Below, one piece after another: positions 1,908-31,763 of a DNA stretch of 39,949 nucleotides (positions are counted from its first letter, which is position 1; the number at the start of each line of letters is the position of its first letter). The position numbers and the translations under genes were made by a program. The stretch is from a virus (Duplodnaviria > Caudoviricetes). The notes below the pieces were generated by a model. That model had not been told where the DNA came from. It made no database searches and was given only the letters and a program-made list of their open reading frames with translations. Location: the IMG/VR virus record IMGVR_UViG_3300012200_000010, positions 1 through 39,949 of that record; one strand, written 5' to 3'.

Positions 1908-3736
1908 GCAAAACAATTCAAGCGATCGGCGTATTTAACGCTGTACCGTCCGCAAGAACTGCGCTCATCATCTGTCCGGCTTCTCTCAAACTCAACTGGC
2001 AGCGCGAGTGGCAAAAGTGGAACACCAAAGCCTCGACGGTTGCGGTAATCCAGCCAGGGCAAAAGGAATGGCCAACTGCGGAGGTCATCATAATCAACTA
2101 CGACCTTCTCGGCAAATGGCAGGAACAACTGCGAGCCACCGAGTGGGATATCATGGTAGTCGACGAGGCTCACTACCTCAAGGAACCTCGCACCGGACGA
2201 ACCCAAGAAATCTTTGGGCGCAAAAAAGCCACAACAAGAGTACGCACGCGAACCATAACCACTATTGAGCAGCGAGAAGTCACAAAAGAGCCGGAGCGCG
2301 TAGAGGTGCCGTTTGGGCAGGAGGATAGCTTACGGATATCCTCTGTTTACGCGCGCCCTACTCTAGTGCCAGTTGACCGTACGGCGTCAGAAGGAATAAG
2401 CTACGAGGAACCAGAACAATACGGTGAGGTCGTGCTCGAGGACGTCAAGGTTAAAACGAAAGAGAAATACGAAGTAGTTCTTCCACCTCTCGCGCCTCTC
2501 AAAGCCAAGCGGCGTCTGTTCCTCACTGGCACACCGATAGTAAACCGCCCTAAAGAACTCTGGCCTATCGTGCAATCATTGTGTCCGGACTTTGAAAAGA
2601 ACTTCATGGCCTACGCCATGAAATACTGCAACGCCTTCAAGACGCGCTTCGGGTGGGACTTCAACGGCGCAGCGCGATTGCCAGAGCTTCAGGAGCGACT
2701 GCGCGCGACGTGCATGGTGCGCCGTCTGAAGGCCGACGTGCTCAAGGAACTACCACCGAAGCGTCGGCAAGTCATGGTTTTGGAATCAGAAGGGCTCGAG
2801 GCTATCCTCGAAAAGGAAAAGAAAACTTATGAGCAGTATTCCGAGCACCTCAAGGACGGGGACTTTGAAACACCAGCTTTCGCTGAAATGTCCCGCGTGC
2901 GAAAAGAAGTGGCAATCGCTAAGATCCCGTTTATCGTTGAACACGTCAAAGAAGTTTTGGACGAAGAAGACAAGGTCTGCATTTTCGTTCACCACCATGA
3001 AGTGGTTGATGCTCTGCGTGATGCCTTTGGGGATTCCGCTGTTGCTATCGACGGTCGCACTTCAAACGAAGACCGGCAAGCGGCTGTTGACAGATTCCAG
3101 GGCGACGAAACTTGCAAAGTTTTTGTTGGCACTATACGAGCCGCTGGTGTTGGCATCACGCTCACTGCTTCTTCAACTGTCATCTTCGGTGAACTGGATT
3201 GGGTCCCCGGCAACGTCACCCAAGCAGAAGACCGCTGCCACAGAATTGGGCAGCATGACACGGTCTTCGTTCGGCACCTCGTTTTGGAATCATCCCTTGA
3301 CGAGCGTATGGCGCAAATCATTGTCGACAAACAGGAAGTAATTGACAAAGCCTTGGACGCCACCACCGAGGCGCGTGCGCCTGAATTCAGAGTCGCAGAC
3401 ATCATTCAACCGCCGCCTGCAAATCACGTTCCTGGCACTATACCCACACAGACCGTGACGCGAGAGCAACTCGAAAAGATGTACCGCGGCTTTTCTGACG
3501 AACAAGAGCAAGCGGTCCTGGCAGGCCTGCGCATCCTGGCCTCCAAGTGTGACGGTGCCTTGGAAGAGGACGGCTGCGGCTTCAATAAGCGGGACACAGC
3601 TTTCGGAAAGAGTTTGGCACAACAGACCACGTTGTCCGAAAAGCAGTTCAAGTGTGGCCTTAAAATGATCAGGCTGTACCATAGACAGCTTCCTTCGGAT
3701 TTGGTAATCTTAGCAGTAGGAAAGGAAAGCCGATGA
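1907..3736 (+). CDS. SNF2-family helicase, main body (frame open from GKT of Walker A; no own start codon there)
   Basis: GKTIQAI, ICPASLKLNW (Ia), DEAH (II), LTGTP (III), GVGITLT (V), QAEDRCHRIGQ (VI); extra C-terminal CDGA..DG.GFN domain. Confidence 0.9.
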   Translation, partial: GKTIQAIGVFNAVPSARTALIICPASLKLNWQREWQKWNTKASTVAVIQPGQKEWPTAEVIIINYDLLGKWQEQLRATEWDIMVVDEAHYLKEPRTGRTQEIFGRKKATTRVRTRTITTIEQREVTKEPERVEVPFGQEDSLRISSVYARPTLVPVDRTASEGISYEEPEQYGEVVLEDVKVKTKEKYEVVLPPLAPLKAKRRLFLTGTPIVNRPKELWPIVQSLCPDFEKNFMAYAMKYCNAFKTRFGWDFNGAARLPELQERLRATCMVRRLKADVLKELPPKRRQVMVLESEGLEAILEKEKKTYEQYSEHLKDGDFETPAFAEMSRVRKEVAIAKIPFIVEHVKEVLDEEDKVCIFVHHHEVVDALRDAFGDSAVAIDGRTSNEDRQAAVDRFQGDETCKVFVGTIRAAGVGITLTASSTVIFGELDWVPGNVTQAEDRCHRIGQHDTVFVRHLVLESSLDERMAQIIVDKQEVIDKALDATTEARAPEFRVADIIQPPPANHVPGTIPTQTVTREQLEKMYRGFSDEQEQAVLAGLRILASKCDGALEEDGCGFNKRDTAFGKSLAQQTTLSEKQFKCGLKMIRLYHRQLPSDLVILAVGKESR

Positions 3737-8980: not shown

Positions 8981-9259
8981 ATGCTAGACAGATTAAAACG
9001 TTGGTTCAGCGGCCGTCGTCTGCTTCGGGTATACCAGGACGACTTGAGAGTTGTGCTCAATTATCATGAGAGACTCAAGCACAGAAGCATCCCAACCGAC
9101 GAAGAGTGCGAAAGTCGGATCCTCGGCCCCGCGCGTTCTTGCTCAATGATGAGCGGGCGCGTTCCGGCAACAAAAGTCAACTGGGATGTATTCGCCCGCC
9201 CGCGGAAACTACATTTCACAACCCCACTTGCGCCCTGTGGCGCAGGGGTTCAGCAGTGA
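8981..9259 (+). CDS. Hypothetical protein
   Basis: SD GGAGG; stop overlaps GTG 9256. Confidence 0.55.
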   Translation: MLDRLKRWFSGRRLLRVYQDDLRVVLNYHERLKHRSIPTDEECESRILGPARSCSMMSGRVPATKVNWDVFARPRKLHFTTPLAPCGAGVQQ

Positions 9260-9795
9260 GGGTCGTTCTAGCCACAGTTCTGCTATCCTTGGCCGCTTAC
9301 GCAGCCTTGGCGGCCGACCTAACCCCCTCTCCCAAACTAACAGTCCAAGCTCCCACTCCCGCCAGCATCCAAGCCGACATTATCCATGAACGCAAACTAA
9401 GGCAGTACGTGATCGCCGAAAAAGCGGCTCTTTCTGTGTTTCGGCGACACGCGCAGTGCAACCAGTTCGCCGGTCTGGTCGGCGAGCGATCGGTCGAAAC
9501 CGGCCTACCAGCAAGGATCCTGGCCGCAGTCGCGATCGTCGAAAGCAGTTGTAATCCAAACGCTGTATCCCCGACAGGGGACTACGGCCTGTTCCAGGTC
9601 AACGCCAAAGCCCACCACGTCAGTCCGAAAGTGCTGTTGGATCCAGCCAAGAACGCCAGAATAGCGAGCGAGTTTTTGCGCGCGCTGATTCGACAGTACG
9701 GCGCCGTAGAGGGCCTTCATCGTTACAACGGTCTGGGCAATCCAACCAATGCGTATGCCGATCGGGTGTTTCAAGTTGCGGGGTACAAATCATGA
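9256..9795 (+). CDS. Soluble lytic transglycosylase (SLT domain) with N-terminal signal/anchor
   Basis: AVAIVESSCNPNAVS (catalytic Glu), GDYGLFQV, LLDPAKN, RYNG; hydrophobic N-terminus. Confidence 0.88.
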   Translation: MRVVLATVLLSLAAYAALAADLTPSPKLTVQAPTPASIQADIIHERKLRQYVIAEKAALSVFRRHAQCNQFAGLVGERSVETGLPARILAAVAIVESSCNPNAVSPTGDYGLFQVNAKAHHVSPKVLLDPAKNARIASEFLRALIRQYGAVEGLHRYNGLGNPTNAYADRVFQVAGYKS

Positions 9796-12864: not shown

Positions 12865-13302
12865 ATGAAGCATACTCGCGCAGAATGCGACGGAAGTTGC
12901 CACGAAACGTACGGTTGTAGCTTATGCAATTTGTTCGCGTGCTCCGTTTGTTTCGGTGCAGAAGGAAGTTTGACAACCGACTGCCCGGGTGTTAAAATGA
13001 CAGATGATCAGGAGACGGCCGTCTATGGTGGCGCGCTTGACTATCGCGAAGGCAAAGGTTGGTGCACACCAGACGGGACAGGCACAAGCATGGGCGATAC
13101 CGACGTAAAGATAGAGGCCACCAAGAAGGAGACTTACGCTGATTACTCCAATTTCAGTTGGGAGGCTATTCAAAAGTCCCTGAAAGAGGCGGTCGAAAAT
13201 ATCCAGCGCACCACCTGCGCCACAGACGAGCAGATGGCCGAGGCCTTATCGGTATCTGCTAAGAAGTTCATGGACACGAATTTCCTCAAGGAGCCAAAGT
13301 GA
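12865..13302 (+). CDS. Cys-rich phage protein
   Basis: CSLC..CSVCFGAEGSLTTDCPG. Confidence 0.6.
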   Translation: MKHTRAECDGSCHETYGCSLCNLFACSVCFGAEGSLTTDCPGVKMTDDQETAVYGGALDYREGKGWCTPDGTGTSMGDTDVKIEATKKETYADYSNFSWEAIQKSLKEAVENIQRTTCATDEQMAEALSVSAKKFMDTNFLKEPK

Positions 13303-14198
13303 CCTTTACAGAGCAGTCCGCAACCTTCTTGGAAAGGCTGGCCAGCAGGAAGCGCCAACCGGTAAAACCAGCGACTCTCCGGGCGTACCGGGGATACACT
13401 ACAAACTGGATCCTGCCGCGCCTTGGCGACGTGGATCTGCATACCTTCGATAACGGGGCCATGAAGGCATTCGCCGACAGCCTGACGGGCCTGGGCCCTA
13501 AGAGCACGACCGAGGTGGTCTCCCTGGTCAAGCAGATCGTAAGCTCGGCCGTGGACACCAACGGCAACAGGCTCTACCCGCGGGAATGGAACAACGAGTT
13601 CATCGACCTCCCGGTGGTGGACAAGCAGAAGCAGCCGGAGGTCACCCTGGAGCAGCTGGAGGTGGTTATGGCTGGCAAGTACAGGACATTCTATGCCCTG
13701 CTTGCAGGCACCGGCCTCCGTATAGGTGAAGCCCTGGCTGTACGCATTGGAGACGACGGCCAGCACACATGCTGGAGTCCGTCCAAAGCCGCCATATTCG
13801 TCCGTACCGCGTTCTGGCAGGGCCGGGAGCAGGACCCCAAGACCAAAGCCGCCGTTCGGGATGTAGACCTGGACCCCCGCTTGAACGATATGCTGCGGTT
13901 CTGGGCGCCCCCGGCAGGGGCTTCTGGTCTGTTCCTGTTCCGCGGCCCCGCCGGCAACCACCTGTGGGAGAGCCGCCTGTACACCGACAGCCTGGTCCCG
14001 GCCGGGGTGGAGGGTTTCCACTCGTTCCGCCGGTACCGCACCACGCGCCTCCGGGAGACCGGGACGCCGGAAGAGATCATTAGGTATTGGATCGGCCACG
14101 CCAGCAAGAGCGTTACGGATCGATATTCGAAGTTGGCCTCAAACGTCAAACTGCGCAAGCAGTGGGCGGCTCAGGCCGGATTAGGGTTTGAAGTATGA
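13299..14198 (+). CDS. Tyrosine recombinase/integrase
   Basis: N-terminal core-binding region (PATLRAY); catalytic R (TGLRIGE), K (DPKTK), HxxR (HSFRR), IGH, Y (TDRY). Confidence 0.92.
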   Translation: MTFTEQSATFLERLASRKRQPVKPATLRAYRGYTTNWILPRLGDVDLHTFDNGAMKAFADSLTGLGPKSTTEVVSLVKQIVSSAVDTNGNRLYPREWNNEFIDLPVVDKQKQPEVTLEQLEVVMAGKYRTFYALLAGTGLRIGEALAVRIGDDGQHTCWSPSKAAIFVRTAFWQGREQDPKTKAAVRDVDLDPRLNDMLRFWAPPAGASGLFLFRGPAGNHLWESRLYTDSLVPAGVEGFHSFRRYRTTRLRETGTPEEIIRYWIGHASKSVTDRYSKLASNVKLRKQWAAQAGLGFEV

Positions 14199-15307: not shown

Positions 15308-15718
15308 TCACTTAAAACAAGCGTTGCGACCGATGGTGGCAATCATAGGATGGGCTGCCATCTGCCGCACGATCTTTTCTTTGAACTCTTCTGTGCACTC
15401 GTTCAGGCGTCCATACCATAGGGCGCCTTCGGTAATATCCCGCTCGCGTCCATTGTAAATGTTATCCGCGACCGCTAGGCACCGTCTGAATATCTGGTCG
15501 TGGTGAGGGTCCCCAAACTTTATGGCGGACCTATCGCCGGCGAAGTTGAAGGCGTGGTGCTTCTGAATCAAACGCAGCCATTGCCCGTCTTCCCATCCTG
15601 CTAGCACACGGTTGCGAACCACAAGCCCGCACAGCGTCATGCCGAGCAGCAGGTCGTCGTGCGACTCGTTCCACATTAGGGTCGCGAGCGCGCTCACTAT
15701 GTAATCGCTAGGAACCAT
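15308..15718 (-). CDS. SleB/Hydrolase_2-like cell wall hydrolase (putative endolysin)
   Basis: LATLMWNES (catalytic Glu), VVRNRV, DITEGALWY, IGRNACF. Confidence 0.75.
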   Translation of the reverse strand: MVPSDYIVSALATLMWNESHDDLLLGMTLCGLVVRNRVLAGWEDGQWLRLIQKHHAFNFAGDRSAIKFGDPHHDQIFRRCLAVADNIYNGRERDITEGALWYGRLNECTEEFKEKIVRQMAAHPMIATIGRNACFK

Positions 15719-15830
15719 TTTTCTTCTCCTCGGGGAGGCGGGACTTCCAGCCGCACCCACATTCAAACCTGTCTTCGTGCTTCTCCCGATTTATTGGTTG
15801 CTTGCACGAGGGGCAGCGCATCGTATCCAT
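15708..15830 (-). CDS. 40-aa zinc-ribbon protein
   Basis: SD GAGGT; MDTMRCPSC...FECGCGW. Confidence 0.6.
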   Translation of the reverse strand: MDTMRCPSCKQPINREKHEDRFECGCGWKSRLPEEKKNGS

Positions 15831-15831
15831 A

Positions 15832-18800
15832 TTACCTCAAATCAGCGTGTATGCTTTGCAGCTTGCGCCATGTAGGATCATTCGCCCGAACCGATGGCGG
15901 ATGTTCCTTGATATAAGCAACACGCGCTCTCCACAGCTGAGCCGTCAACTGATCCTTCTCCGCAGGGCGCGCCACATCCCATACATCGATTTTGTCTGCT
16001 AGAGGCAATCGATCGAAGCGCGCCTGCAAGGGGGTCATGTGCTGACGTTTAAAAATCTCATCGGCTCGCCGCTTGCCGACTTGTTGTAGTACTTGGCCTC
16101 GACTGATTTCTCCGTTCTGGAGAGCAGTCTCAAGGCGTACATCTGTTTGGTGAGCGGCCAGGTTGCGTTCGCTGACCGGCCCAGAAGGCATGCGGTCTGA
16201 TGAAAGTTGCTGTGCCAATTTCTCGGCCTCGGTCCTATATTTGAGAACGCTGAGACCGGAGGCTTTGAGGATCTGATCCACGTTTGTGGCGTCCGGAGCA
16301 GGCTTGAGAAAGCTCTGGCCGGCTATAGGAACGATGTTGCGTACCAGATCACTGGCTTGTGTTTCCATTGGGGCCCTGCGCCCTAGGGCATCGCGGCCGG
16401 ACAGGAACTCCATCGTCGGGCGAACAGTCAGGGGGTTGATACGGTTGGCCAGGAAGCCGCGCGGATCGGTCATGACGTGCAGAAGGTCGGTTGGTAGAGT
16501 GCGTACGGAGTAGACCTTCTCCTCGCCTTTATCGTTCTTGCTGACTACACCGAACGGAGCTTCATTGTGCATGTTGCCAGAAGCCAGCATATTGGCTACG
16601 CGGGCAAAGCCCCACAAGCCCGCCATGGTGAGGACCATCTTTTTGCGCGTGATCGCGCCAGTCTCTTTGTCGAACATTCCGGCGGCGCGGCCTAGCATAC
16701 GGATCTCGGATACCAGCCAGTCCGGAGCCAGGGCAAACATACGCATGAAGTCTTGCTGCGATGCAGAGACTCCAAGTTTGTGCCAGTCCTGTCCGCCGAA
16801 GACGTCGTTCGTCATATCGGCAGCGCGCGATGCCCGCTCGTCCGCAGTTAGGTTTGTATTGCGCTCGCCTATGTCTTCGTACAGTTTTAGTGCGGCGCGG
16901 TCCTTCAGGCTTGGAATGTATTTCTCGAACAAGAACTCCTGCATTTTGGATTGCAAAGCATTCAGGCCAGGAACTCGGCTGATGAACTTCGAGTGGCTGG
17001 CGTAACCGGTGGAATACTCGTCCTTGGGTTTGAACATGTCGCGCTTCAAACCGTTCTTAACGAGCCGCTGTAGCGTCGGGCTTTCGTTTATGTTCATGTG
17101 GTCGAAGGTGAAAGGATTGACGCCCATCATAACGGCGCGGAGCCCTTCCTGAATGATGTGGAACGGGGAGATTGATAGCAATAAGCCTTTGGCCTCGCCG
17201 GATGCTTTGCCGATCGATCGCAGAATTTTGTTGGACCGGAATGGGGACTCCTCAATGCCTAGCACGCGCCGGACTTCTGGTACAAAGTCGGGGTGAATCA
17301 TGAGATCGCCTCGCAGGAACACGGGCGCGCCATTGGTATCTTGTCCAGAGTAGTTCCACCCGCGCATGGCGGAATGGTCCGGAGCAACGTAGCCGTCGGT
17401 GGACCAAGCGTAGGCGTGAACTTTGTTCCCGTCTTCCGCAGTTAGGTCCCAAGGCAGGCGTTCGATTATGCCGTCCTTGAGGGCCTTCTCCAGCTTTGTC
17501 ATGCCAGTCCGCGGGTCAGCCCCACCTTCTTGCATGCCTTTGATTATTTCGTTGGATATGTTTATTCTCTTCATCTGCTGAGGATCTACCGCAACCGCGG
17601 GATTGCCGGTCTCGCTTCCCATGATCCTGGAGGTTCCGGCCAAAACCGCAGCAGGCCGCCCATCGCCGGCTTTTAGATCTTTCGCGCGCATAGCTTCCAA
17701 ATACTCGCGGCCAGCCATGGCGTGCTCTACGGCGACATAATGATTGTAGGCGTGCAGCGCCAGGTCGTCGTGTTTGAATTTCTCGCCGGCCATGAGCCCC
17801 TGGAGTTCGGTGCGATATGCGCGCTGCTTGGCTTGGTTGACGTTGGTGGAGAACCGGCCGCTGTCGGCGTCGTCTCGCAGTTGGTTTAGGGCAGAATTGT
17901 TGGATTCTTCTTCGCCCTTGCCGTGGAGCCTTTGCCAAAAGCTGTTGATTTTATCTGCCCACGCCTGTGGGTGGTAGGCCTCGACCCATTCGCGGATCAA
18001 ACCTGCCTTGTGCATCTTGTTGAAGGATTCGTCGTAGAACTGGCGTAGGGATTCGGCGACTGCTTTCTCTTCGTCGGTCAGCGTAAGCGCGTAGCGGAAA
18101 CCATCCAGAAGTTCTTTCTGCTCTTTCGGCGTGTACTTCTTTAGAAATCGCGAGTTGTCCCCCGGCAGGTCTTCCGCGCCGAGTGGGCGCAGCGGTGTAG
18201 AATTGCCGGTTAGCTTGCCGTCCGCATTCCGCTCTAGTTCATGCCCCGGCATGTGCGTACGTTCAGTGATAAGTTTGTCGTCCGGAATAGGGTCGGTTTC
18301 TGCTGGAGGTGCGTGTCCGGCTTTAGCCGCCAGGTCTGCATGAATGCCAGCCTCGACCTCAGCGCGCGGCACGGAGAAGACGGTCAGATCGTTTCGACTG
18401 CCGCTATCCGGCGTCGTGGCCTTTGCCAGGGCTTCGTCCGCGGTCGCGTAGTACTTGATCGTTTCTCGGCGCGAGCTCTTGATGCCCGCGTTTTTCACCA
18501 TATCGGCGTACTTGGACTCGACTGCAGCGAAAACGTGGTCGCGGCTCCAGGGGCTGTCTTGTCCTTCTGGGCGCAGGTTCTTTTTGGTGGTTCCTTCAAG
18601 CACGCCTAAGGCTTTGTTGATCGCATCCACGTCACCACCGAACGTGATGTAGTGGCGGATCGCGGCTTGGGCTACCTTGTCTTCCACGCCGGCGTCTTTC
18701 AATTCTTCACGTATCGCCTCCATCTTGGCGCGCGATAGATCCAAGCCCTTGCTGGTGCTCTCTTTGAATTTGCCGGCAATGTCTGCAGCTATCTTGAGAG

Positions 18801-19692
18801 AATCAGTTACGGTCTGCGGCTTGCCGCTGACGGCATCATGTACAGCTTTTATGTCTTCGAACCCGTGATGTGCGCCCTGTGCAAAAAGGGCCGCGCCACC
18901 AAGTAGGTTTGTGCCTAAGCGCGTGGCGGCTTCAACGTCACCGTCTTTAAGAGCGTCCAGGAACTCCGGAGATTGAGTAACCAAACCGTGCGCCATATCT
19001 ACGGCGAAACCTGTGGACATAGCAGCTTTGAGGGTCTTTACAACTGTAGGAGCCAGCTTCTCTCCTACACCCAAAGATTTAAGAACGCCGATACCAGCGC
19101 CTTCGACGGCACTGCCGCCGAACGTTGCTATCAAAAGTCCAACCTGAAGCGGTGTGATGAAGCTGTTGCCGAGATCTTCTAGGCCGGATTCAAGGCCCTT
19201 CTCAAAATTGCCTGCGCCCTCGTGCGTGCCCCACTTGTGCAGGTCGTAGAAAGGGGAATTCATCCACTCCCACGCCTTGCTGTACCACGGCTCCTCTTCC
19301 ATCTTCTCTGGATCGGATTTGCCGTAGTCCACTTCTGCTTGAGAAAGGGTTCGGCTCGGGCCATACGCTCTGGAAATGCTTGGTCCTGCTGCATTCTCTG
19401 CTGCTGCCTGCGCCCAGAGTGTTGAGGACGGCGCAGAAGAAGGCGCAGCGGCAGGCGTAGTTGTTGCGCTGTTTTCTTTTTCGGCTTGCGCCCATAAACC
19501 TGCGGACGTCTGTGTAGGAGACTGTGTCGGCTGTTGAATCGCCGCGCTGTTTTCTTTTTCGGCTTGTGCCCACAAACCTGCGGAAGAGGCCTCCGGCGCC
19601 ATCGCGGGAGCAGGAGTAGGAGCCGCCGTTGGAGCGGCTCCCTTGTTTTCAGATTCGGCTTGTGCCCAAAGAGCTTGCGATGTAGTTGACAT
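15832..19692 (-). CDS. Large internal virion/ejection protein (1286 aa)
   Basis: Size, helical Ala-rich composition, position at end of the ejection cluster; N-terminal LWAQA repeats. Confidence 0.7.
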   Translation of the reverse strand: MSTTSQALWAQAESENKGAAPTAAPTPAPAMAPEASSAGLWAQAEKENSAAIQQPTQSPTQTSAGLWAQAEKENSATTTPAAAPSSAPSSTLWAQAAAENAAGPSISRAYGPSRTLSQAEVDYGKSDPEKMEEEPWYSKAWEWMNSPFYDLHKWGTHEGAGNFEKGLESGLEDLGNSFITPLQVGLLIATFGGSAVEGAGIGVLKSLGVGEKLAPTVVKTLKAAMSTGFAVDMAHGLVTQSPEFLDALKDGDVEAATRLGTNLLGGAALFAQGAHHGFEDIKAVHDAVSGKPQTVTDSLKIAADIAGKFKESTSKGLDLSRAKMEAIREELKDAGVEDKVAQAAIRHYITFGGDVDAINKALGVLEGTTKKNLRPEGQDSPWSRDHVFAAVESKYADMVKNAGIKSSRRETIKYYATADEALAKATTPDSGSRNDLTVFSVPRAEVEAGIHADLAAKAGHAPPAETDPIPDDKLITERTHMPGHELERNADGKLTGNSTPLRPLGAEDLPGDNSRFLKKYTPKEQKELLDGFRYALTLTDEEKAVAESLRQFYDESFNKMHKAGLIREWVEAYHPQAWADKINSFWQRLHGKGEEESNNSALNQLRDDADSGRFSTNVNQAKQRAYRTELQGLMAGEKFKHDDLALHAYNHYVAVEHAMAGREYLEAMRAKDLKAGDGRPAAVLAGTSRIMGSETGNPAVAVDPQQMKRINISNEIIKGMQEGGADPRTGMTKLEKALKDGIIERLPWDLTAEDGNKVHAYAWSTDGYVAPDHSAMRGWNYSGQDTNGAPVFLRGDLMIHPDFVPEVRRVLGIEESPFRSNKILRSIGKASGEAKGLLLSISPFHIIQEGLRAVMMGVNPFTFDHMNINESPTLQRLVKNGLKRDMFKPKDEYSTGYASHSKFISRVPGLNALQSKMQEFLFEKYIPSLKDRAALKLYEDIGERNTNLTADERASRAADMTNDVFGGQDWHKLGVSASQQDFMRMFALAPDWLVSEIRMLGRAAGMFDKETGAITRKKMVLTMAGLWGFARVANMLASGNMHNEAPFGVVSKNDKGEEKVYSVRTLPTDLLHVMTDPRGFLANRINPLTVRPTMEFLSGRDALGRRAPMETQASDLVRNIVPIAGQSFLKPAPDATNVDQILKASGLSVLKYRTEAEKLAQQLSSDRMPSGPVSERNLAAHQTDVRLETALQNGEISRGQVLQQVGKRRADEIFKRQHMTPLQARFDRLPLADKIDVWDVARPAEKDQLTAQLWRARVAYIKEHPPSVRANDPTWRKLQSIHADLR
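19466..19584 (-). repeat. 41-bp near-identical repeat (SAGLWAQAEKENSA)
   Basis: 19466-19506 vs 19544-19584, 2 mismatches. Confidence 0.9.
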
Positions 19693-19701
19693 TGTTCAGC
19701 C

Positions 19702-21753
19702 TTATTTCTGATATTTAACTAGTTTAATGCCCTGGCGCGTGAAATTGTCTATTTGTGCTTGAGTCAGTGGTTGGTGGATACCGGTGGCCACTTCTAGCAT
19801 TTCGACCATTTCCGGTTTGGATTGAGTAGTGGGGCCCGGTTGCGGGGCATTGTTGAGCATCTTGTCCATGAACTCAATCTTCTCATCGTCTGTCCACTTC
19901 GGATGATTTTTGATTTCATCCGCGATGTCCTCTCGCAGTTCAGGGTTCGGTACCGTTCCGACTTTAGCGCCGGAGTAAGTAGGATTTGTTATGCGTTTGA
20001 GTTGTTCGAGTTTGGCTGCTTTCTCTTCTTTGGCTCGGGCGGTTGCTTTCTCTAGTTGGACCTTGGCTGCAGCCTGATCAGGCGTATCAGTAGCTTTGAC
20101 TTCTGTGGCCTTGGCCGCAGCTTGCGTCGTAGACGCTGTAACGATTCTGGCTTGCAGTTGTTCCCGAACGCGCGACAATTCCTCGGGCTTCCAGGATGTT
20201 TTGTAGGTGCCGTCCTTAACCTTCTTGTCGAATGTTTCGAGAGCCTGTTTGCCGTCGAACTTGCCATCCGTCGTGTAGCGTTGAACGAAGGCGTTGGCGA
20301 AGGCTGCCTCTCTGCTAACAGGCGTTCCCAAAGAGCGCAGTGTCGACGTGCTTGTGTCTAGTGCACTTTGGGCTTCGACGATTGATTGGCGTATAGTTGC
20401 TTCTTGCGGGGTTCCTGCCGCTAGAACGAGTTGGTTGTTTCCTTTGTTGATGGTGTCTTGTGCGATAGCGGCCTGCGTATGCGCGAAGTTGCCGATGAAT
20501 CCTCGGTCCTTCTCAGTCATATACGGAAGGCCTGTGTCGGTGTTTACGGCCCAAGGCTGATTGCCGGCGGCGAACATGCGCTCGTGTGCGCCGGACAAAG
20601 CATCCTCTTTCGCAGCGTCCGCCAGAAACTTCTTGGCATGCGCCCAGTCCATAGCGGCAGCGGCTTCCGCCTGCTTAGTTTCGGCGGCCGATTTTTTGTT
20701 CTTGGCTTGATCGTCCAACCATCCGGAATATACTTTTCCGGTCATAAGTATTGGATCCATAACTTTGCCGGAGGCGTCCTTGGTTCCGTCTGGGATTGGA
20801 TTACCTTCGCTGTCCTTTGCGACAGAATTGTTGGCGTTCTTTTTAGCAAAGCGCATAACTTGTAGGTCTTCATAGCCCTTAGGCTTTCTCATCACAACGT
20901 ATCCGCTTCGGTTTGGGTCGTACATGATTCTGGTGTCGTAATCGCCAGGACGAATGAGATCGTTCGTGTATTTCTTGACTGCCTCTTCGGCGTCTTGGGT
21001 GCTCGCGAACAAGTGAACTTTGCCGTTGGGTTCTTGCACTTCTGCGTACCCAGATGTTTTGGCACTCTCGAATTTGTCTAACTGAGCATTCTTGTAATCC
21101 AACTGCTCTTGAGAGAACTTAATAGCTCCCTGCGAGGCGGCTTGTTTAATGGATTCGGTCTCAGCCACGTCGCGTTGCATTCTAACAGCGGACTCCTGCT
21201 GTGCTCTAGCGTCGGCGTGTTTCTTCATGAGAGCTTCGTCCGCGATGGTCTTGTTTTTAAATTGATCTTGGGCCTCTTTCTCGGCTTTCTCATTCTGATC
21301 TTTTCTTGACGCATCTTCGGCTTTAAACCCAGCCGAGAACGCAGAAGACATAGCAGGACCCTTGCCGCGGTTTGCTGGGTCATAGCCGCCCGCAAGGCCG
21401 GTGATCGCCGCAGCCAAAATGCCGCGTGCCATCTCGCCTGGTTTCAGGTCGCGATATGTGGCCACCGGGCCGTTCTCTGTTTGAGTCCATTCCTTTTTCT
21501 TGCCGCCTGCCAGGGTCTGGAAGATCTCACTCAAAACGTGCTTGCCGCCCTGCTCCACAGATCCGATGAGTCCGGGCTTGGTAGGGGCTGTTGGCGCAGC
21601 TGGCGCGGCACCCACGGCCGGAGCGGCCTGGGGCGCGGTGGTCTGAGGCGTGTTCGCCCCGAGATCGTTCTGGGCTGCGTCATTGCTGGTAGTTGCGGCC
21701 GGGATGGGGGTCATGCCTGCGGAAGTCTCTGGGGTGGGTGTATCGTTTGCCAC
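19702..21753 (-). CDS. Internal virion/ejection protein (683 aa)
   Basis: Ala/Gln/Lys-rich helical sequence, GILAAAITGLAGG segment, position. Confidence 0.65.
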   Translation of the reverse strand: MANDTPTPETSAGMTPIPAATTSNDAAQNDLGANTPQTTAPQAAPAVGAAPAAPTAPTKPGLIGSVEQGGKHVLSEIFQTLAGGKKKEWTQTENGPVATYRDLKPGEMARGILAAAITGLAGGYDPANRGKGPAMSSAFSAGFKAEDASRKDQNEKAEKEAQDQFKNKTIADEALMKKHADARAQQESAVRMQRDVAETESIKQAASQGAIKFSQEQLDYKNAQLDKFESAKTSGYAEVQEPNGKVHLFASTQDAEEAVKKYTNDLIRPGDYDTRIMYDPNRSGYVVMRKPKGYEDLQVMRFAKKNANNSVAKDSEGNPIPDGTKDASGKVMDPILMTGKVYSGWLDDQAKNKKSAAETKQAEAAAAMDWAHAKKFLADAAKEDALSGAHERMFAAGNQPWAVNTDTGLPYMTEKDRGFIGNFAHTQAAIAQDTINKGNNQLVLAAGTPQEATIRQSIVEAQSALDTSTSTLRSLGTPVSREAAFANAFVQRYTTDGKFDGKQALETFDKKVKDGTYKTSWKPEELSRVREQLQARIVTASTTQAAAKATEVKATDTPDQAAAKVQLEKATARAKEEKAAKLEQLKRITNPTYSGAKVGTVPNPELREDIADEIKNHPKWTDDEKIEFMDKMLNNAPQPGPTTQSKPEMVEMLEVATGIHQPLTQAQIDNFTRQGIKLVKYQK

Positions 21754-21754
21754 G

Positions 21755-22168
21755 TTATTTCTCCTCTAAGAAAAAACCGAGTTCGGTCTGGGCGTTGATT
21801 TCAATCCCAGGTAATGCCTTGTTCAAAAAGTCTATGACCTCAAAGATGTGTCCATCTCTTATGCTATCAAGATGGAAGGATTTTAGCAAGTCACTCAGCG
21901 TGCTTGAAGCACTGAGCTTGCCTTCGTATCCTTTGGCTCTTGATTGACCGGAGCACTTCCACTCCAGGTCTTGGATCAGGAAGCGGTACCCCCCGATCAG
22001 TGATGTAAAGATGCGGCGACCTTTGTTATCCACTTCCCCGAGGTGCCTGAACGAGTACGCGCGGGCCAGCGCGGGATTCCGCAACTGGTACGCGTCCGAG
22101 GAAGGATCATGCATTCTGTTGATGAATCCTATAGCATCTGCCAAAGCCTCAATTCGTTTCGGCGGCAT
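21755..22168 (-). CDS. Virion protein, possibly a degenerate lysozyme-like fold
   Basis: RNP...GRRIFTSLIGG...L..DL...TL..L resembles NNPGN-type phage proteins. Confidence 0.4.
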   Translation of the reverse strand: MPPKRIEALADAIGFINRMHDPSSDAYQLRNPALARAYSFRHLGEVDNKGRRIFTSLIGGYRFLIQDLEWKCSGQSRAKGYEGKLSASSTLSDLLKSFHLDSIRDGHIFEVIDFLNKALPGIEINAQTELGFFLEEK

Positions 22169-22754
22169 GGGAATTCTCCTTCTGTTTTTGAAAGAATCTA
22201 CGTCGGCCTTCTTGAATGTGTTGTATGTGACTAGCAGAAAGCTTCATACCTTTTCTGCCTTCACTCATTCTTTGTTTATGCAGTTCAGATTTTGGTTTTG
22301 CGAGAGCGGCGGTGCTCAGTGTTTTTGATAATTTTATTTTATATTCGGGATCTGACCACCGTTGCCTGGAAGCTTTACCTATCCGCTTTCGGTGTTCTTC
22401 GGAAAGCGTTCTTCCAGTTAATCGAGCTTTCATTTTTTCTATGCCGTCGGTGGTAACAACTACCGACTCTCCGCCGGCGGTAATGTTATAACCAAAATGT
22501 TCGTTGGTTGTATTTAAAAGGATGATCCACAACTTCTCGGTGTTGTTTAAGGACTCCTTTGATTTTGGTTCAGCCAGTACTTGAAGAGAAAACGATTCAC
22601 TTCCGTGTTTGCGTATCGCCTTTCCTATTCTAGTAGGCCGCCCGTGAAGGGCCTGCGATCTGTGCTTTGTCCATCTCGTAGAAAGAGGGACAATTGTCTG
22701 GCCAACGTAGCATTTTTCGGTGACCTCGTTGAACGCGAGGTAAACGATTCCCAT
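22149..22754 (-). CDS. GIY-YIG homing endonuclease with NUMOD3 repeats
   Basis: SD AGGAG; GIVY...YVGQT, R...H, E, GYN; LSEEHRKRIG / KSELHKQRMS repeats. Confidence 0.9.
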   Translation of the reverse strand: MGIVYLAFNEVTEKCYVGQTIVPLSTRWTKHRSQALHGRPTRIGKAIRKHGSESFSLQVLAEPKSKESLNNTEKLWIILLNTTNEHFGYNITAGGESVVVTTDGIEKMKARLTGRTLSEEHRKRIGKASRQRWSDPEYKIKLSKTLSTAALAKPKSELHKQRMSEGRKGMKLSASHIQHIQEGRRRFFQKQKENSHAAETN

Positions 22755-22768
22755 AGCTGTTCTCCTTT

Positions 22769-23767
22769 TTACTCTAACGACCAAATTCCATTGCTGAGGT
22801 AACCGTGCAGACCGCCACTCAACTTGATCATAATGACCCAGCCGGCGGGGAGATGCTTTACTTCAACTACTTTCTCAGCCACAACGCCGTGGACGACGCG
22901 ATTGAGAGAATTAATAGCCCTTACGTAACCGCGGTTCGCGCAAGAGAAGGTGTGGGATTCACTGACGTCGATGCTACGTCCATTTTCGGTGGTAACCCTA
23001 ACACAATTTTGGCGGAACGTAGTAATTTCCTCGACCATTTCCGGGCCCTCAAAGCCGAGCACTTCATCACCTTCTCTAAGCGAGCCAGCGATCCTCTCGG
23101 AGCCGTCTGCCATCATGATCATTGTATCAGGGGAAACGCACGCCACGCCTGCCGCGCCGATCGCCGAATCAGCTAATCCACCTACGAGGCCCATCCACGA
23201 GGTGGATGCGGCTTCGTTGGCGTTGGCTTGGGCCGCTTCATTCGATTGCGCTGTATTTCCCAGGCTGCCAAATTCCGCCGCCGGCGACATAGTCTCGGCG
23301 CCAAGCTTGGCTTCCTGCGTCATACCAAGATCGCGTTCCTTGCGGCCGATGTTATAATCTTCCGCTGTGATCTCGGCCTGTTGGTCCGCCTCTTTGCCAA
23401 GGATCTCCGCGGTAGCACCAGCGCGCACAGCTTGGGTAACTCCGGACTCGACGCCAGGAACTGCGCTGGTCATAGCCGCGTGCTCGCCGATATGCCTGTT
23501 AACCTTCTGAATGTTGGCCGCAGATGCGTTCGTGGCCTGGGATCTGCGGGCCGCCAACTCTTCCGACGACATGCCGTGCTCGGTGTTGATGATCTTGTCC
23601 CATCCGGCTTTAAGGGAGTTGTACATGGATGAGCCCATGCCGAACACCGTTTTGTAGGAGTCGTGCATGATGCTCGTGAAGTCTTGCGCGCCCTTGAGGG
23701 CGGCTTGCTGCGCACCGGACGGATCGCAGTTCTTATAAATCTTGCCTACGTATTTGAAAGTTTTCAT
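22769..23767 (-). CDS. Pilot/ejection-like protein with C-terminal Hint domain
   Basis: Ala/Gln-rich helical body; CVSPDTMIMMADGS (block A), L..GD.V, VSESHTF (block B), YLSNGIW (block G-like). Confidence 0.8.
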   Translation of the reverse strand: MKTFKYVGKIYKNCDPSGAQQAALKGAQDFTSIMHDSYKTVFGMGSSMYNSLKAGWDKIINTEHGMSSEELAARRSQATNASAANIQKVNRHIGEHAAMTSAVPGVESGVTQAVRAGATAEILGKEADQQAEITAEDYNIGRKERDLGMTQEAKLGAETMSPAAEFGSLGNTAQSNEAAQANANEAASTSWMGLVGGLADSAIGAAGVACVSPDTMIMMADGSERIAGSLREGDEVLGFEGPEMVEEITTFRQNCVRVTTENGRSIDVSESHTFSCANRGYVRAINSLNRVVHGVVAEKVVEVKHLPAGWVIMIKLSGGLHGYLSNGIWSLE

Positions 23768-24183
23768 AGTCGCACCGAATATTGGTCCTTTGCTTCTTGA
23801 AAGCCGAACTTGCCGAAAAGATTGATCAGCCCTTTGGACTGAGAATCGAAAATCATTTCGTGATATCCGAGGCTCTTGGCACCGGCCGAGATTTCATAGA
23901 AGGCCTGCTTGAGCGCCAGCTTCGTGATCTCTTTGTCGTTCCCAACGTCTGGCGGGAACTGGATGTAGCAGCGCATGACATTCTCAAGCTTCAGGTAGAA
24001 CACGACGCCGCCGACAGTCTCCACAGCAATGCTCTTGGAGCCCATCGGTTTGGCGAGAGTTTGTGAGTCCGCGGCCCACCACTCAGGCTTCACATCGTGA
24101 TGTTGGGGGCAAGAATCCTTTGCTATCCACGCGGACAGCCGGGGAATATCTGATTCATTGACACCTCTGAGATTGACTTTCAC
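23764..24183 (-). CDS. GNAT-like protein (T7 gp13/P22 gp14 position)
   Basis: GTGA coupling; LRGVNESDIPRL...W, AKSLGYHEM...LINLFGKFGF. Confidence 0.55.
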   Translation of the reverse strand: MKVNLRGVNESDIPRLSAWIAKDSCPQHHDVKPEWWAADSQTLAKPMGSKSIAVETVGGVVFYLKLENVMRCYIQFPPDVGNDKEITKLALKQAFYEISAGAKSLGYHEMIFDSQSKGLINLFGKFGFQEAKDQYSVRL

Positions 24184-31142: not shown

Positions 31143-31763
31143 TTACGACTTCTGGAACGAAGAGTCGTCGTGTCCCGGTTTGAAAATCGGGTGATGCAGA
31201 ATTTCGCCGTCTTCCATATAAACCATAATTACGCCGCCTGGTTTTACGGCCTTGTCTTCCTTGTGATCTCGGCCGATAAGAAGATGGTTTAAAGAGTGAA
31301 CGATCGAGGAGTGCGCCACAACCACAACAGGATGACCTTGCTTCCATCCTAGTTGAATAGCTTCTGCCAGAATAGGCCATACGCGTGATTCGAACTGGCT
31401 GATTGATTCGCCACCAGGAGGAACTACATCCGGGTGCGCGTCATAGAACGCCATTTTCTTTAGATTCTGGTCGTTCTTTGGTTTACCTGTTAGCTCACCG
31501 ATGTTCCACGGCTTGAGATTGTCGATTGTTTCCGGCTGATAATCATCTTGGTCGTCGCAGATGATTGTTGCTGTTTGAATGGAACGGGTCATCCTAGAAC
31601 AGAAGACACGGTGCCAATCTAGTTCGTCGAAGAATTCTCGAAGAACGTGGGCGTCGAGGAAACCTTCTTTGTTCAACGCCGAGTCGCGTTGTCCGCGAAA
31701 GATGTTCAGTCCGCTGTCCGTAGTCGACCCATGCCGTACTAGGTACATGAGTGGCTTTTTCAT
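31143..31763 (-). CDS. Histidine phosphatase superfamily protein
   Basis: YLVRHG motif, S...R..QTA, PGGES, VVVAHS. Confidence 0.9.
   Translation of the reverse strand: MKKPLMYLVRHGSTTDSGLNIFRGQRDSALNKEGFLDAHVLREFFDELDWHRVFCSRMTRSIQTATIICDDQDDYQPETIDNLKPWNIGELTGKPKNDQNLKKMAFYDAHPDVVPPGGESISQFESRVWPILAEAIQLGWKQGHPVVVVAHSSIVHSLNHLLIGRDHKEDKAVKPGGVIMVYMEDGEILHHPIFKPGHDDSSFQKS

What the first reader, a model, noticed from the sequence alone, without database searches (positions are those of the whole stretch)
22769..24183. Ejection-like protein ending in a non-splicing Hint domain beside a GNAT: Hedgehog-like autoprocessing?
Seen: Cys210 (codon at 23140) starts a ~123-aa Hint fold (CVSPDT..ADG, SESH, YLSNGIW) that ends SLE-stop, with no His-Asn and no C-extein. 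It follows a hydrophobic Gly-rich segment WMGLVGGLADSAIGAAGVA. The N-terminus is a short basic leader followed by CDPSG, and the coupled upstream gene looks GNAT-like. Known: Hint domains lacking the terminal Asn cannot splice but still form the N-terminal thioester, which in Hedgehog is resolved by a sterol. Inference: the pilot protein self-cleaves to expose a membrane-active C-terminus, or ligates it to a lipid or another nucleophile, and the GNAT may acylate the other end. That would be a maturation system for membrane-penetrating virion proteins.
Basis: partly seen in the sequence, partly recalled or inferred. Interest (0 to 1): 0.8.

Follow-up and report, generated by a model that had tools for sequence, protein, structure and literature searches.

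The report
Swappable self-cleaving cap on phage pilot
A likely DNA-ejection (pilot) protein of an uncultured short-tailed phage ends in a real intein-like domain that cannot splice and is predicted to cut itself off; relatives carry this domain, an unrelated cysteine-started domain or a lysine-bearing tail at the same spot, which points to an undescribed way of finishing, and possibly chemically capping, the predicted membrane-piercing end.

Summary
Observation confirmed. Residues 210-332 are a Hint fold (Z 20.5 to the gp41-1 intein). Cys1 and the block-B and block-F histidines are kept in 36 of 36 homologues; none ends His-Asn. The carrier is a likely T7 gp14/P22 gp7-type ejection protein of a podovirus.

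The Hint is an optional cassette. Of 225 relatives, 36 have it, 17 have a CFI-box-CTERM-like domain starting with Cys at the same junction, and 172 have neither; the state changes at least 17 times on the tree. New: the segment before the junction has lysine in 0 of 35 Hint forms, but in 119 of 154 plain and 14 of 17 CFI forms.

The GNAT fold is real, but the gene sits beside Hint-plus and Hint-minus genes alike (20 of 21 loci), a known podovirus position, so it is not a Hint partner. Hedgehog's sterol-recognition region is absent.

Best reading: thioester formation and release of the cap (0.45 hydrolysis, 0.35 capture by an amine, lipid, partner lysine or the protein's own N-terminal Cys). 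No experiment exists. My paper searches found no description. The scan noted Hint-capped ejection proteins on other phage DNA before.

The parts
23764..24183 (-). 139-aa GNAT-fold protein in the T7 gp13-like position; conserved family-wide, not Hint-specific
22769..23767 (-). 332-aa precursor: likely first (small) ejection protein plus C-terminal Hint
23729..23767 (-). 13-residue leader before the conserved Cys14; homologues have long, short or no leader; predicted to be removed
   Evidence: P22 gp7 precedent
23198..23728 (-). Residues 14-190: predicted helical core starting at Cys14, with a conserved PGVESG turn
23141..23197 (-). Residues 191-209: most hydrophobic 19-residue stretch of the core, free of Lys and Arg; predicted mature C-terminus
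22772..23140 (-). Residues 210-332: non-splicing Hint domain (Cys210; Ser269-x-x-His272; His321; Trp329; Glu332 at the terminal Asn position)
21755..22168 (-). Conserved 137-aa gene of unknown function that follows the pilot gene in relatives
19702..21753 (-). 683-aa likely second ejection protein (by synteny and size)
15832..19692 (-). 1286-aa likely third ejection protein (by synteny and size)

Best explanation
The 332-aa protein is likely the first, outer-membrane-forming ejection protein of a podovirus, made as a precursor whose C-terminal Hint domain is predicted to form a thioester at Ala209-Cys210 and then come off, most likely by hydrolysis, leaving a pilot of about 196 residues that ends in an uncharged hydrophobic helix. 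Shown: the Hint fold, its catalytic residues, the lack of splicing and sterol-binding parts, and its status as one of three interchangeable C-terminal cassettes (Hint, CFI-box-like domain, plain lysine-bearing tail). Inferred: the acidic, folded Hint (median net charge -5.5) keeps the hydrophobic end soluble and out of the producer's membranes during assembly, the job a lysine tail does permanently in Hint-less relatives. Lysine is inferred to be purged next to the junction because its amine would attack the thioester. The leader is inferred to be removed separately, exposing Cys14. The GNAT is a family-wide morphogenesis factor, possibly acylating that Cys or lysines of the ejection proteins, and is independent of the Hint.
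For: Cys1, Ser/Thr269, His272, His321, Tyr323, Gly280 and Trp329 in 36 of 36 Hint forms; none ends His-Asn or His-Gln. Hint dN/dS 0.056 in the closest pair, L012/L013, with dS near saturation. The junction lies a narrow 17-19 residues (interquartile) after Gly193, so cleavage would give a product like the shortest Hint-less proteins (tails of 16-18 residues, e.g. P0070, P0025). Hint-less relatives up to 92% identical in the core exist (P0010/P0037), and a complete Hint-less genome has no other copy of this Hint (G003), so no essential adduct depends on it. Type B BILs, which lack block G, cleave without splicing (PMC4031507, passages). Ejection identity: order GNAT, ~200, 683, 1286 aa fits the gp14/15/16 operon (PMC8954989, passages); nearest named Atlas clusters are T7_gp14 (0.91, 16% of members) and P22_gp7 (0.90, 32%); an SU10-type portal lies upstream in the complete relative G001 (E 7.6e-25).
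Against: No cleavage was observed; everything is sequence and model. Hydrolysis alone does not obviously need the invariant block-F His, and it leaves a negatively charged, lysine-free end where 119 of 154 plain forms have lysine; this fits capture by a nucleophile at least as well. The usual F:4 Asp is absent (Lys/Arg in 23 of 36), which could slow the acyl shift. The Atlas scores sit at the level that 4-10% of shuffled proteins reach, and no family profile matches the core.
Confidence: 0.45

Rival explanations
1. The thioester is captured rather than hydrolysed. The Hint would ligate the pilot's C-terminus to an amine or alcohol (a polyamine, a phospholipid head group, a lysine of a partner ejection protein, or the protein's own N-terminal Cys14, giving a ring or polymer), and the adduct would replace the lysine tail of Hint-less relatives.
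For: Lys after the GLVGGLA motif in 0 of 35 Hint forms against 119 of 154 plain and 14 of 17 CFI forms; 0 of 359 flank residues against 19 expected. Independent pairs on well-supported branches: 13.1 of 14 go the same way, 0 the other, median p 0.0002; length-matched 10.1 of 14, p 0.002. The 36 flanks fall into 13 clusters, so this is not one hitch-hiking flank. Non-Hint tails use Lys 216 times and Arg 17 times (core 1328:876). Block-F His is invariant though there is no Asn to cyclise. Tetrahymena BIL2 forms a Lys isopeptide (PMC8616854, passages). P22 gp7 folds back on itself with its C-terminus in the outer membrane (bioRxiv 10.64898/2026.09.03.749273, section 6 and passages); if this protein does too, Cys14 would lie near the thioester (inference).
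Against: No acceptor-binding extension: 29 of 36 stop at the Hint's last residue, 7 have 1-33 unconserved residues. 35 of 154 plain forms have no tail Lys either, so lysine is not essential. No gene co-varies with the Hint in 21 loci. Two flank clusters hold 22 of the 36 sequences, so part of the signal is shared descent. The N-terminal Cys is as common without the Hint (152 of 163) as with it (34 of 36).
Confidence: 0.35
2. The Hint is not cleaved during assembly; it stays on as a packaging or binding domain, or is cut only on a trigger at infection.
For: F:4 Asp is missing; F:4 is Lys/Arg in 22 of 27 Glu-ending forms, which could lock the site by a salt bridge (inference). The CFI-like alternative is not a known protease (0 papers for 'CFI-box').
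Against: Strict retention of Cys1 and block-B His in 36 of 36 at about 40% mean identity argues for chemistry; both alternative domains begin with Cys at the junction.
Confidence: 0.12
3. A decayed or selfish intein remnant with no benefit to the phage.
For: Nearest outside relatives are terminase inteins (P0106-P0109, E about 1e-4; BFVD ranks 3, 7, 8). The domain is patchy and exchanged (P0017/P0023: core 99%, Hint 61%). A GIY-YIG endonuclease gene lies right behind it in this phage.
Against: No homologue ends in His-Asn plus an extein (0 of 36); a new conserved end W-S/A-L has been fixed; purifying selection; no stops or frameshifts seen; no homologue of the endonuclease lay beside the other Hint loci; the flank composition is tuned to the Hint.
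Confidence: 0.06

Closest known systems
Type B bacterial intein-like (BIL) domains
   Same: Hint fold, Cys1 and block-B His, no block G His-Asn, no +1 nucleophile; cleavage without splicing (PMC4031507, passages).
   Different: No Hint_2 (PF13403) hit for P0001; closer in sequence and fold to phage mini-inteins such as gp41-1; sits on a phage virion protein; ends W-S-L-E-stop.
Hedgehog C-terminal autoprocessing domain (Hint + SRR; PDB 1at0)
   Same: C-terminal Hint that cannot splice, Gly/Ala-rich N-flank, precursor with a leader followed by Cys; Z 17.4.
   Different: No sterol-recognition region; Glu, not Cys, at the position of Hedgehog Cys400; neighbour is a soluble GNAT, not the membrane enzyme HHAT; domain is optional in the family.
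Tetrahymena BUBL1 BIL2 (PDB 6tmm/6y75)
   Same: Hint thioester resolved by an amine (Lys isopeptide; PMC8616854, passages); Z 18.8.
   Different: BIL2 keeps a terminal Asn and a C-terminal partner domain; this Hint has neither.
P22 gp7 / T7 gp14 ejection proteins with T7 gp13-like GNAT
   Same: Size about 200 aa, helical, hydrophobic C-terminus, first of three ejection genes, removable and dispensable leader in P22 (PMC8402733, passages), GNAT neighbour (PMC6775973, passages).
   Different: No profile match to PF24072 or PF25688; mature end predicted to start with Cys; a C-terminal autoprocessing domain is not mentioned in the passages read.
CFI-box-CTERM domain (NCBIfam NF041770)
   Same: 17 relatives carry a similar domain starting with Cys at the Hint's junction; 10 of 15 scanned, plus P0068, match the model from its first position.
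   Different: All scores are under the 40-bit cut-off (best 32.7); helical and basic (median net +7); function not described in the library searched.

Membership tests
Hint superfamily | Hint beta-fold | tested here: met
   Z 20.5, rmsd 1.5 A over 122 residues; Foldseek E 1.2e-10
Hint superfamily | Cys/Ser1 nucleophile and block-B T/S-x-x-H | tested here: met
   Cys 36/36, Ser or Thr 36/36, His 36/36
Splicing intein (class 1) | Terminal (His)-Asn/Gln and a +1 Cys/Ser/Thr with a C-extein | tested here: not met
   0 of 36 with HN/HQ; terminal column E 27, G 7, Q 1, S 1; 29 of 36 stop there
Type A BIL | C-terminal His-Asn | tested here: not met
   definition from PMC4031507
Type B BIL | Lacks block G His-Asn | tested here: met
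Type B BIL | Match to the Hint_2 profile (PF13403; link to type B recalled) | tested here: not met
   No hit for P0001 at E 0.05; one distant homologue at 17 bits, cut-off 28.4
Type B BIL | Cleavage uncoupled from splicing | not testable with these tools
   needs protein
Hedgehog autoprocessing domain | Sterol-recognition region C-terminal to the Hint | tested here: not met
   protein ends at the last Hint residue; 29 of 36 likewise, 7 with 1-33 extra residues; definition from PMC8529194
Hedgehog autoprocessing domain | Downstream Cys (C143/C400) | tested here: not met
   Glu332 aligns to residue 400 of 1at0 (range ends); no Cys in that column
Hedgehog autoprocessing domain | General-base Asp46 | tested here: inconclusive
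   Asp in only 2 of 36 within residues 247-252, but the mapping of D46 to that stretch is recalled, not from a call
T7 gp14 / P22 gp7-type ejection protein | First, ~200-aa gene of a small-medium-large operon in a podovirus | tested here: met
T7 gp14 / P22 gp7-type ejection protein | Sequence match to PF24072 or PF25688 | tested here: inconclusive
   No HMM hit; Atlas feature scores 0.91 and 0.90
T7 gp14 / P22 gp7-type ejection protein | In the virion, ejected, inserts in the outer membrane | not testable with these tools
   uncultured phage; hydrophobic stretch 191-209 is consistent
GNAT acyltransferase | GNAT fold | tested here: met
GNAT acyltransferase | Acyl-CoA pyrophosphate loop (R/Q-x-x-G-x-G, recalled) and activity | tested here: inconclusive
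   No such motif visible in alignment A2; no Pfam GNAT hit in 22 members; activity untested
Coupled Hint-GNAT system | GNAT co-varies with the Hint | tested here: not met
   GNAT in 8 of 8 Hint-plus and 12 of 13 Hint-minus loci with upstream DNA; no discriminating column; one copy per genome in 3 of 3

The most novel reading that the evidence does not exclude
Podoviruses of this family covalently finish the membrane-piercing end of their first ejection protein in two alternative ways: plain forms use tail lysines (as charge or as acylation sites for the GNAT), while Hint forms use a domesticated intein to attach a polyamine, lipid or partner protein, or to close the chain on its own N-terminal Cys. 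The CFI-box-CTERM domain would be a second, unrecognised cysteine autoprocessing module.
Probability: 0.35. Interest if true: 0.85.

Novelty: new variant of a known kind. Interest (0 to 1): 0.62.

Why it matters
Ejection proteins must stay soluble in the producing cell and then insert into a host membrane; how they are primed is poorly known, and the GNAT beside them has been noted without a substrate. This family offers a natural experiment: near-identical pilots with a Hint, a CFI-like domain or a lysine tail, testable with one 332-aa construct. It gives a domesticated intein a role in virion maturation and a first functional clue to CFI-box-CTERM. A 123-residue natural thioester-forming domain could also serve in protein ligation. 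If capture rather than hydrolysis is found, it would be Hedgehog-like or BIL2-like protein ligation in a bacteriophage.

Tried and rejected
Assembly artefact: rejected (second assembly identical, shared stop column). Hint read through or frameshifted in Hint-less relatives: rejected; the next gene starts within about 10-35 nt in the Hint-less loci where it is present, and the 36-sequence Hint profile found only the known pilot ORFs in the window and loci. Hint supplied in trans: none in complete G003. Endonuclease-driven mobility: the GIY-YIG gene was found only in this phage. A Hint-specific GNAT or partner gene: none. Cultured relatives: 0 of 50,697 phage records match the core; 5 weak hits are to the Hint only. 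Host: not found; the one genome hit is a 1.9-kb contig in a MAG and one protein carries a MAG label, both probably binned viral DNA. P22 portal and coat profiles do not match G001 or G003; the portal is SU10-type. A recalled resemblance of the GNAT's Asp-Pro-x-His loop to toxin-activating lysine acyltransferases got no support; absence from those lists does not exclude it. VIA hits for the helical core (Z under 10) were not used. dN/dS was unusable for most of the 21 pairs because dS is saturated. No complex prediction and no read mapping were run. Paper searches that found no description of Hint-capped or acylated ejection proteins: (listings only; subscription papers are not in the library; no supplements were opened).

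Full report
OBSERVATION. The ORF at 22769-23767 (minus strand) encodes 332 aa. Cys210 (codon 23140-23138) starts a 123-residue domain that ends SLE-stop. The domain is a Hint: it passes the cut-off of TIGR01445, a 21-sequence profile hits the gp41-1 intein at E 1.4e-8, and the AlphaFold model (pLDDT about 90 there) matches gp41-1 at Z 20.5, rmsd 1.5 A over 122 residues, BIL2 at Z 18.8 and the Hedgehog Hint at Z 17.4. The aligned ranges place Glu332 where inteins have the terminal Asn and Hedgehog has residue 400. The 139-aa upstream protein overlaps the pilot's start codon and has a GNAT fold (best Z 11.7, rmsd 2.9 A over 133; Foldseek E 4.7e-5), although 0 of 22 family members hit a Pfam GNAT profile.

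CONTEXT. The window is a 43%-complete virus record. The gene order GNAT, pilot, 137 aa, 683 aa, 1286 aa recurs in the fetched loci. A complete 92.8-kb relative (G001) has an SU10-type portal upstream, and the window's 352-aa gene weakly hits the SU10 adaptor. This fits the small-medium-large ejection operon of podoviruses, whose first member is about 200 aa and inserts in the outer membrane (PMC8954989, passages). Residues 14-209 have no HMM match, but the nearest named Atlas clusters are T7_gp14 and P22_gp7 (0.91 and 0.90, a lead only). I therefore call it a likely gp14/gp7-type pilot. No cultured phage matches the core and the host is unknown.

THE HINT IS AN OPTIONAL CASSETTE. One search gave 78 proteins (the query included): 21 with the Hint, 2 with another domain, 55 with neither. 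I added 4 from a Hint-profile search and 143 new ones from the best 150 of 729 clusters. Of these 225, 36 have the Hint, 17 have a domain that starts C-W/F/H-I/V at the same junction (16 by pattern, P0167 added by hand), and 172 have neither. The queries contained the Hint, so its share is probably inflated. The second domain matches CFI-box-CTERM from its first position, under the cut-off (10 of 15; P0068). On a FastTree of the core (216 rows; 9 partial rows dropped) the Hint state changes 22 times, at least 17 forced by well-supported branches; CFI changes 17 times for 17 rows. Hint-plus and Hint-minus cores can be 92% identical, and two cores 99% identical carry Hints only 61% identical. 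Core and Hint identities still correlate (Mantel r 0.66), so descent with losses and some swaps both occur; the tree cannot order them. A complete Hint-less genome has no other copy.

IT IS MAINTAINED FOR CHEMISTRY. Cys1, Ser/Thr269, His272, Gly280, His321, Tyr323 and Trp329 are present in 36 of 36 at about 40% mean identity. None ends His-Asn; the last column is Glu 27, Gly 7, Gln 1, Ser 1; 29 stop there and 7 run on by 1-33 residues. F:4 is Lys/Arg in 23 of 36 and Asp in 1. The closest DNA pair gives dN/dS 0.056 for the Hint, with dS near saturation; most other pairs are saturated. The nearest outside relatives are terminase inteins, which suggests a domesticated intein. Block-B Thr/His drive the N-terminal acyl shift, and type B BILs without block G cleave without splicing (PMC4031507, passages). 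Hedgehog needs a sterol-recognition region, Asp46 and Cys143 (PMC8529194, passages); the first and third are absent here, and the second is inconclusive because my mapping of it is recalled.

LYSINE EXCLUSION. I scored the segment between the GLVGGLA motif and the junction or stop in 206 rows (5 rows with frameshift-like or partial ends and 5 with a gap at the anchor column left out). Lys occurs in 0 of 35 Hint forms, 119 of 154 plain forms and 14 of 17 CFI forms; the Hint flanks hold 0 Lys in 359 residues against 19 expected. All 36 Hint forms lack Lys/Arg in the last 12 residues. In independent pairs on starred branches 13.1 of 14 go the same way and none the other; with tails cut to matched length 10.1 of 14. 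The flanks form 13 clusters, two of which hold 22 sequences, so shared descent explains part but not all of it. Non-Hint tails prefer Lys to Arg 216:17. Against over-reading: 35 of 154 plain forms have no tail Lys, and a lysine bias is also typical of soluble or membrane-surface tails (my knowledge). Two readings remain: lysine is purged because it would attack the thioester, or the Hint attaches something that replaces lysine. BIL2 shows that a Hint thioester can be resolved by a Lys amine (PMC8616854, passages).

N-TERMINUS AND GNAT. Cys14 is present in 200 of 216; it follows a short leader in 96, a long leader in 45 and at most 3 residues in 59, so it is probably the mature N-terminus. P22 gp7 loses a dispensable 20-residue leader to host OpdA (PMC8402733, passages). 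Cys14 is no more frequent with the Hint (34 of 36) than without (152 of 163). Among 21 distinct loci with upstream DNA, the GNAT lies directly upstream in 8 of 8 Hint-plus (one, L028, cut by the contig end) and 12 of 13 Hint-minus loci; L017 has another small gene there. No alignment column separates the two sets of GNATs, and each of 3 genomes has one copy. A GNAT beside internal virion genes, likened to T7 gp13, is in print (PMC6775973, passages). So the GNAT belongs to the ejection module, not to the Hint. It may acylate Cys14 or tail lysines; nothing here tests that.

MECHANISM. Shown: fold, residues, distribution, flank composition. Inferred: the precursor folds, Cys210 forms a thioester with Ala209, and the Hint (13.5 kDa) leaves a 21.7-kDa fragment, 20.1 kDa after leader removal. 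In P22 the gp7 hairpin puts its C-terminal helices in the outer membrane (bioRxiv 10.64898/2026.09.03.749273, section 6 and passages); the model's two long helical arms around the PGVESG turn could do the same, which would bring both processed ends to the membrane. I give hydrolytic release of a protective cap 0.45, capture by a nucleophile 0.35, retention or triggered cleavage 0.12 and a decayed intein 0.06.

NOVELTY. It works like a type B BIL or an SRR-less Hedgehog domain but meets the membership tests of neither, nor of inteins. Searches of the held library (listings) found no description of Hint-capped ejection proteins or of CFI-box function; subscription papers are missing and no supplements were read. 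Earlier notes of this scan describe Hint-capped ejection proteins on other phage DNA; none matched this protein by sequence. Two of them report a GNAT that travels with the Hint, which does not hold in this family. What this locus adds is the three-way cassette exchange and the lysine exclusion. Verdict: real, a new variant of a known kind, interest 0.62.

Noticed in passing
window 22149-22754 (-): GIY-YIG homing endonuclease gene inserted between the pilot and the 137-aa gene; no homologue in the other phages' loci.
   Followed up: partly
window 21755-22168 (-): 137-aa gene, 53-81% identical in close relatives and more conserved than the pilot; large virus-only unnamed Atlas clusters (0.97), only weak lysozyme-like leads.
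   Followed up: partly
P0068, P0077, P0114, P0115, P0120 and 12 more: CFI-box-CTERM-like domain at the Hint's junction, with conserved Cys, Arg and Tyr; candidate second autoprocessing module; 0 papers for 'CFI-box'.
   Followed up: partly
P0113, P0148, P0172, P0176, P0198, P0228, P0234: Second Hint subtype (starts Cys-Pro, F:4 mostly Asn, mostly Gly at the terminal position, 1-33 extra residues); P0113 joins it to a core of the window's type.
   Followed up: partly
window 31143-31763 (-): Histidine phosphatase gene (E 1.6e-29) inside the tail module, also in L003.
   Followed up: no
window 13299-14198 (+), 2153-3736 (+), 9106-9795 (+), 15308-15766 (-): Integrase-like gene, SNF2 helicase, SLT transglycosylase and a weak cell-wall hydrolase hit; the phage may be temperate.
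   Followed up: no
L036 6662-9291 and 13217-14014: In relative G001 a short major-head-protein ORF is followed by endonuclease ORFs (possible intron), and a trypsin-like protease lies among the fibre genes.
   Followed up: no
L010 6925-8864; L023 939-2710; L007 3598-7053: The second ejection gene is split into two ORFs in L010 and L023; in L007 the third diverges from the window after residue 1134. Frameshifts or assembly errors not resolved.
   Followed up: no
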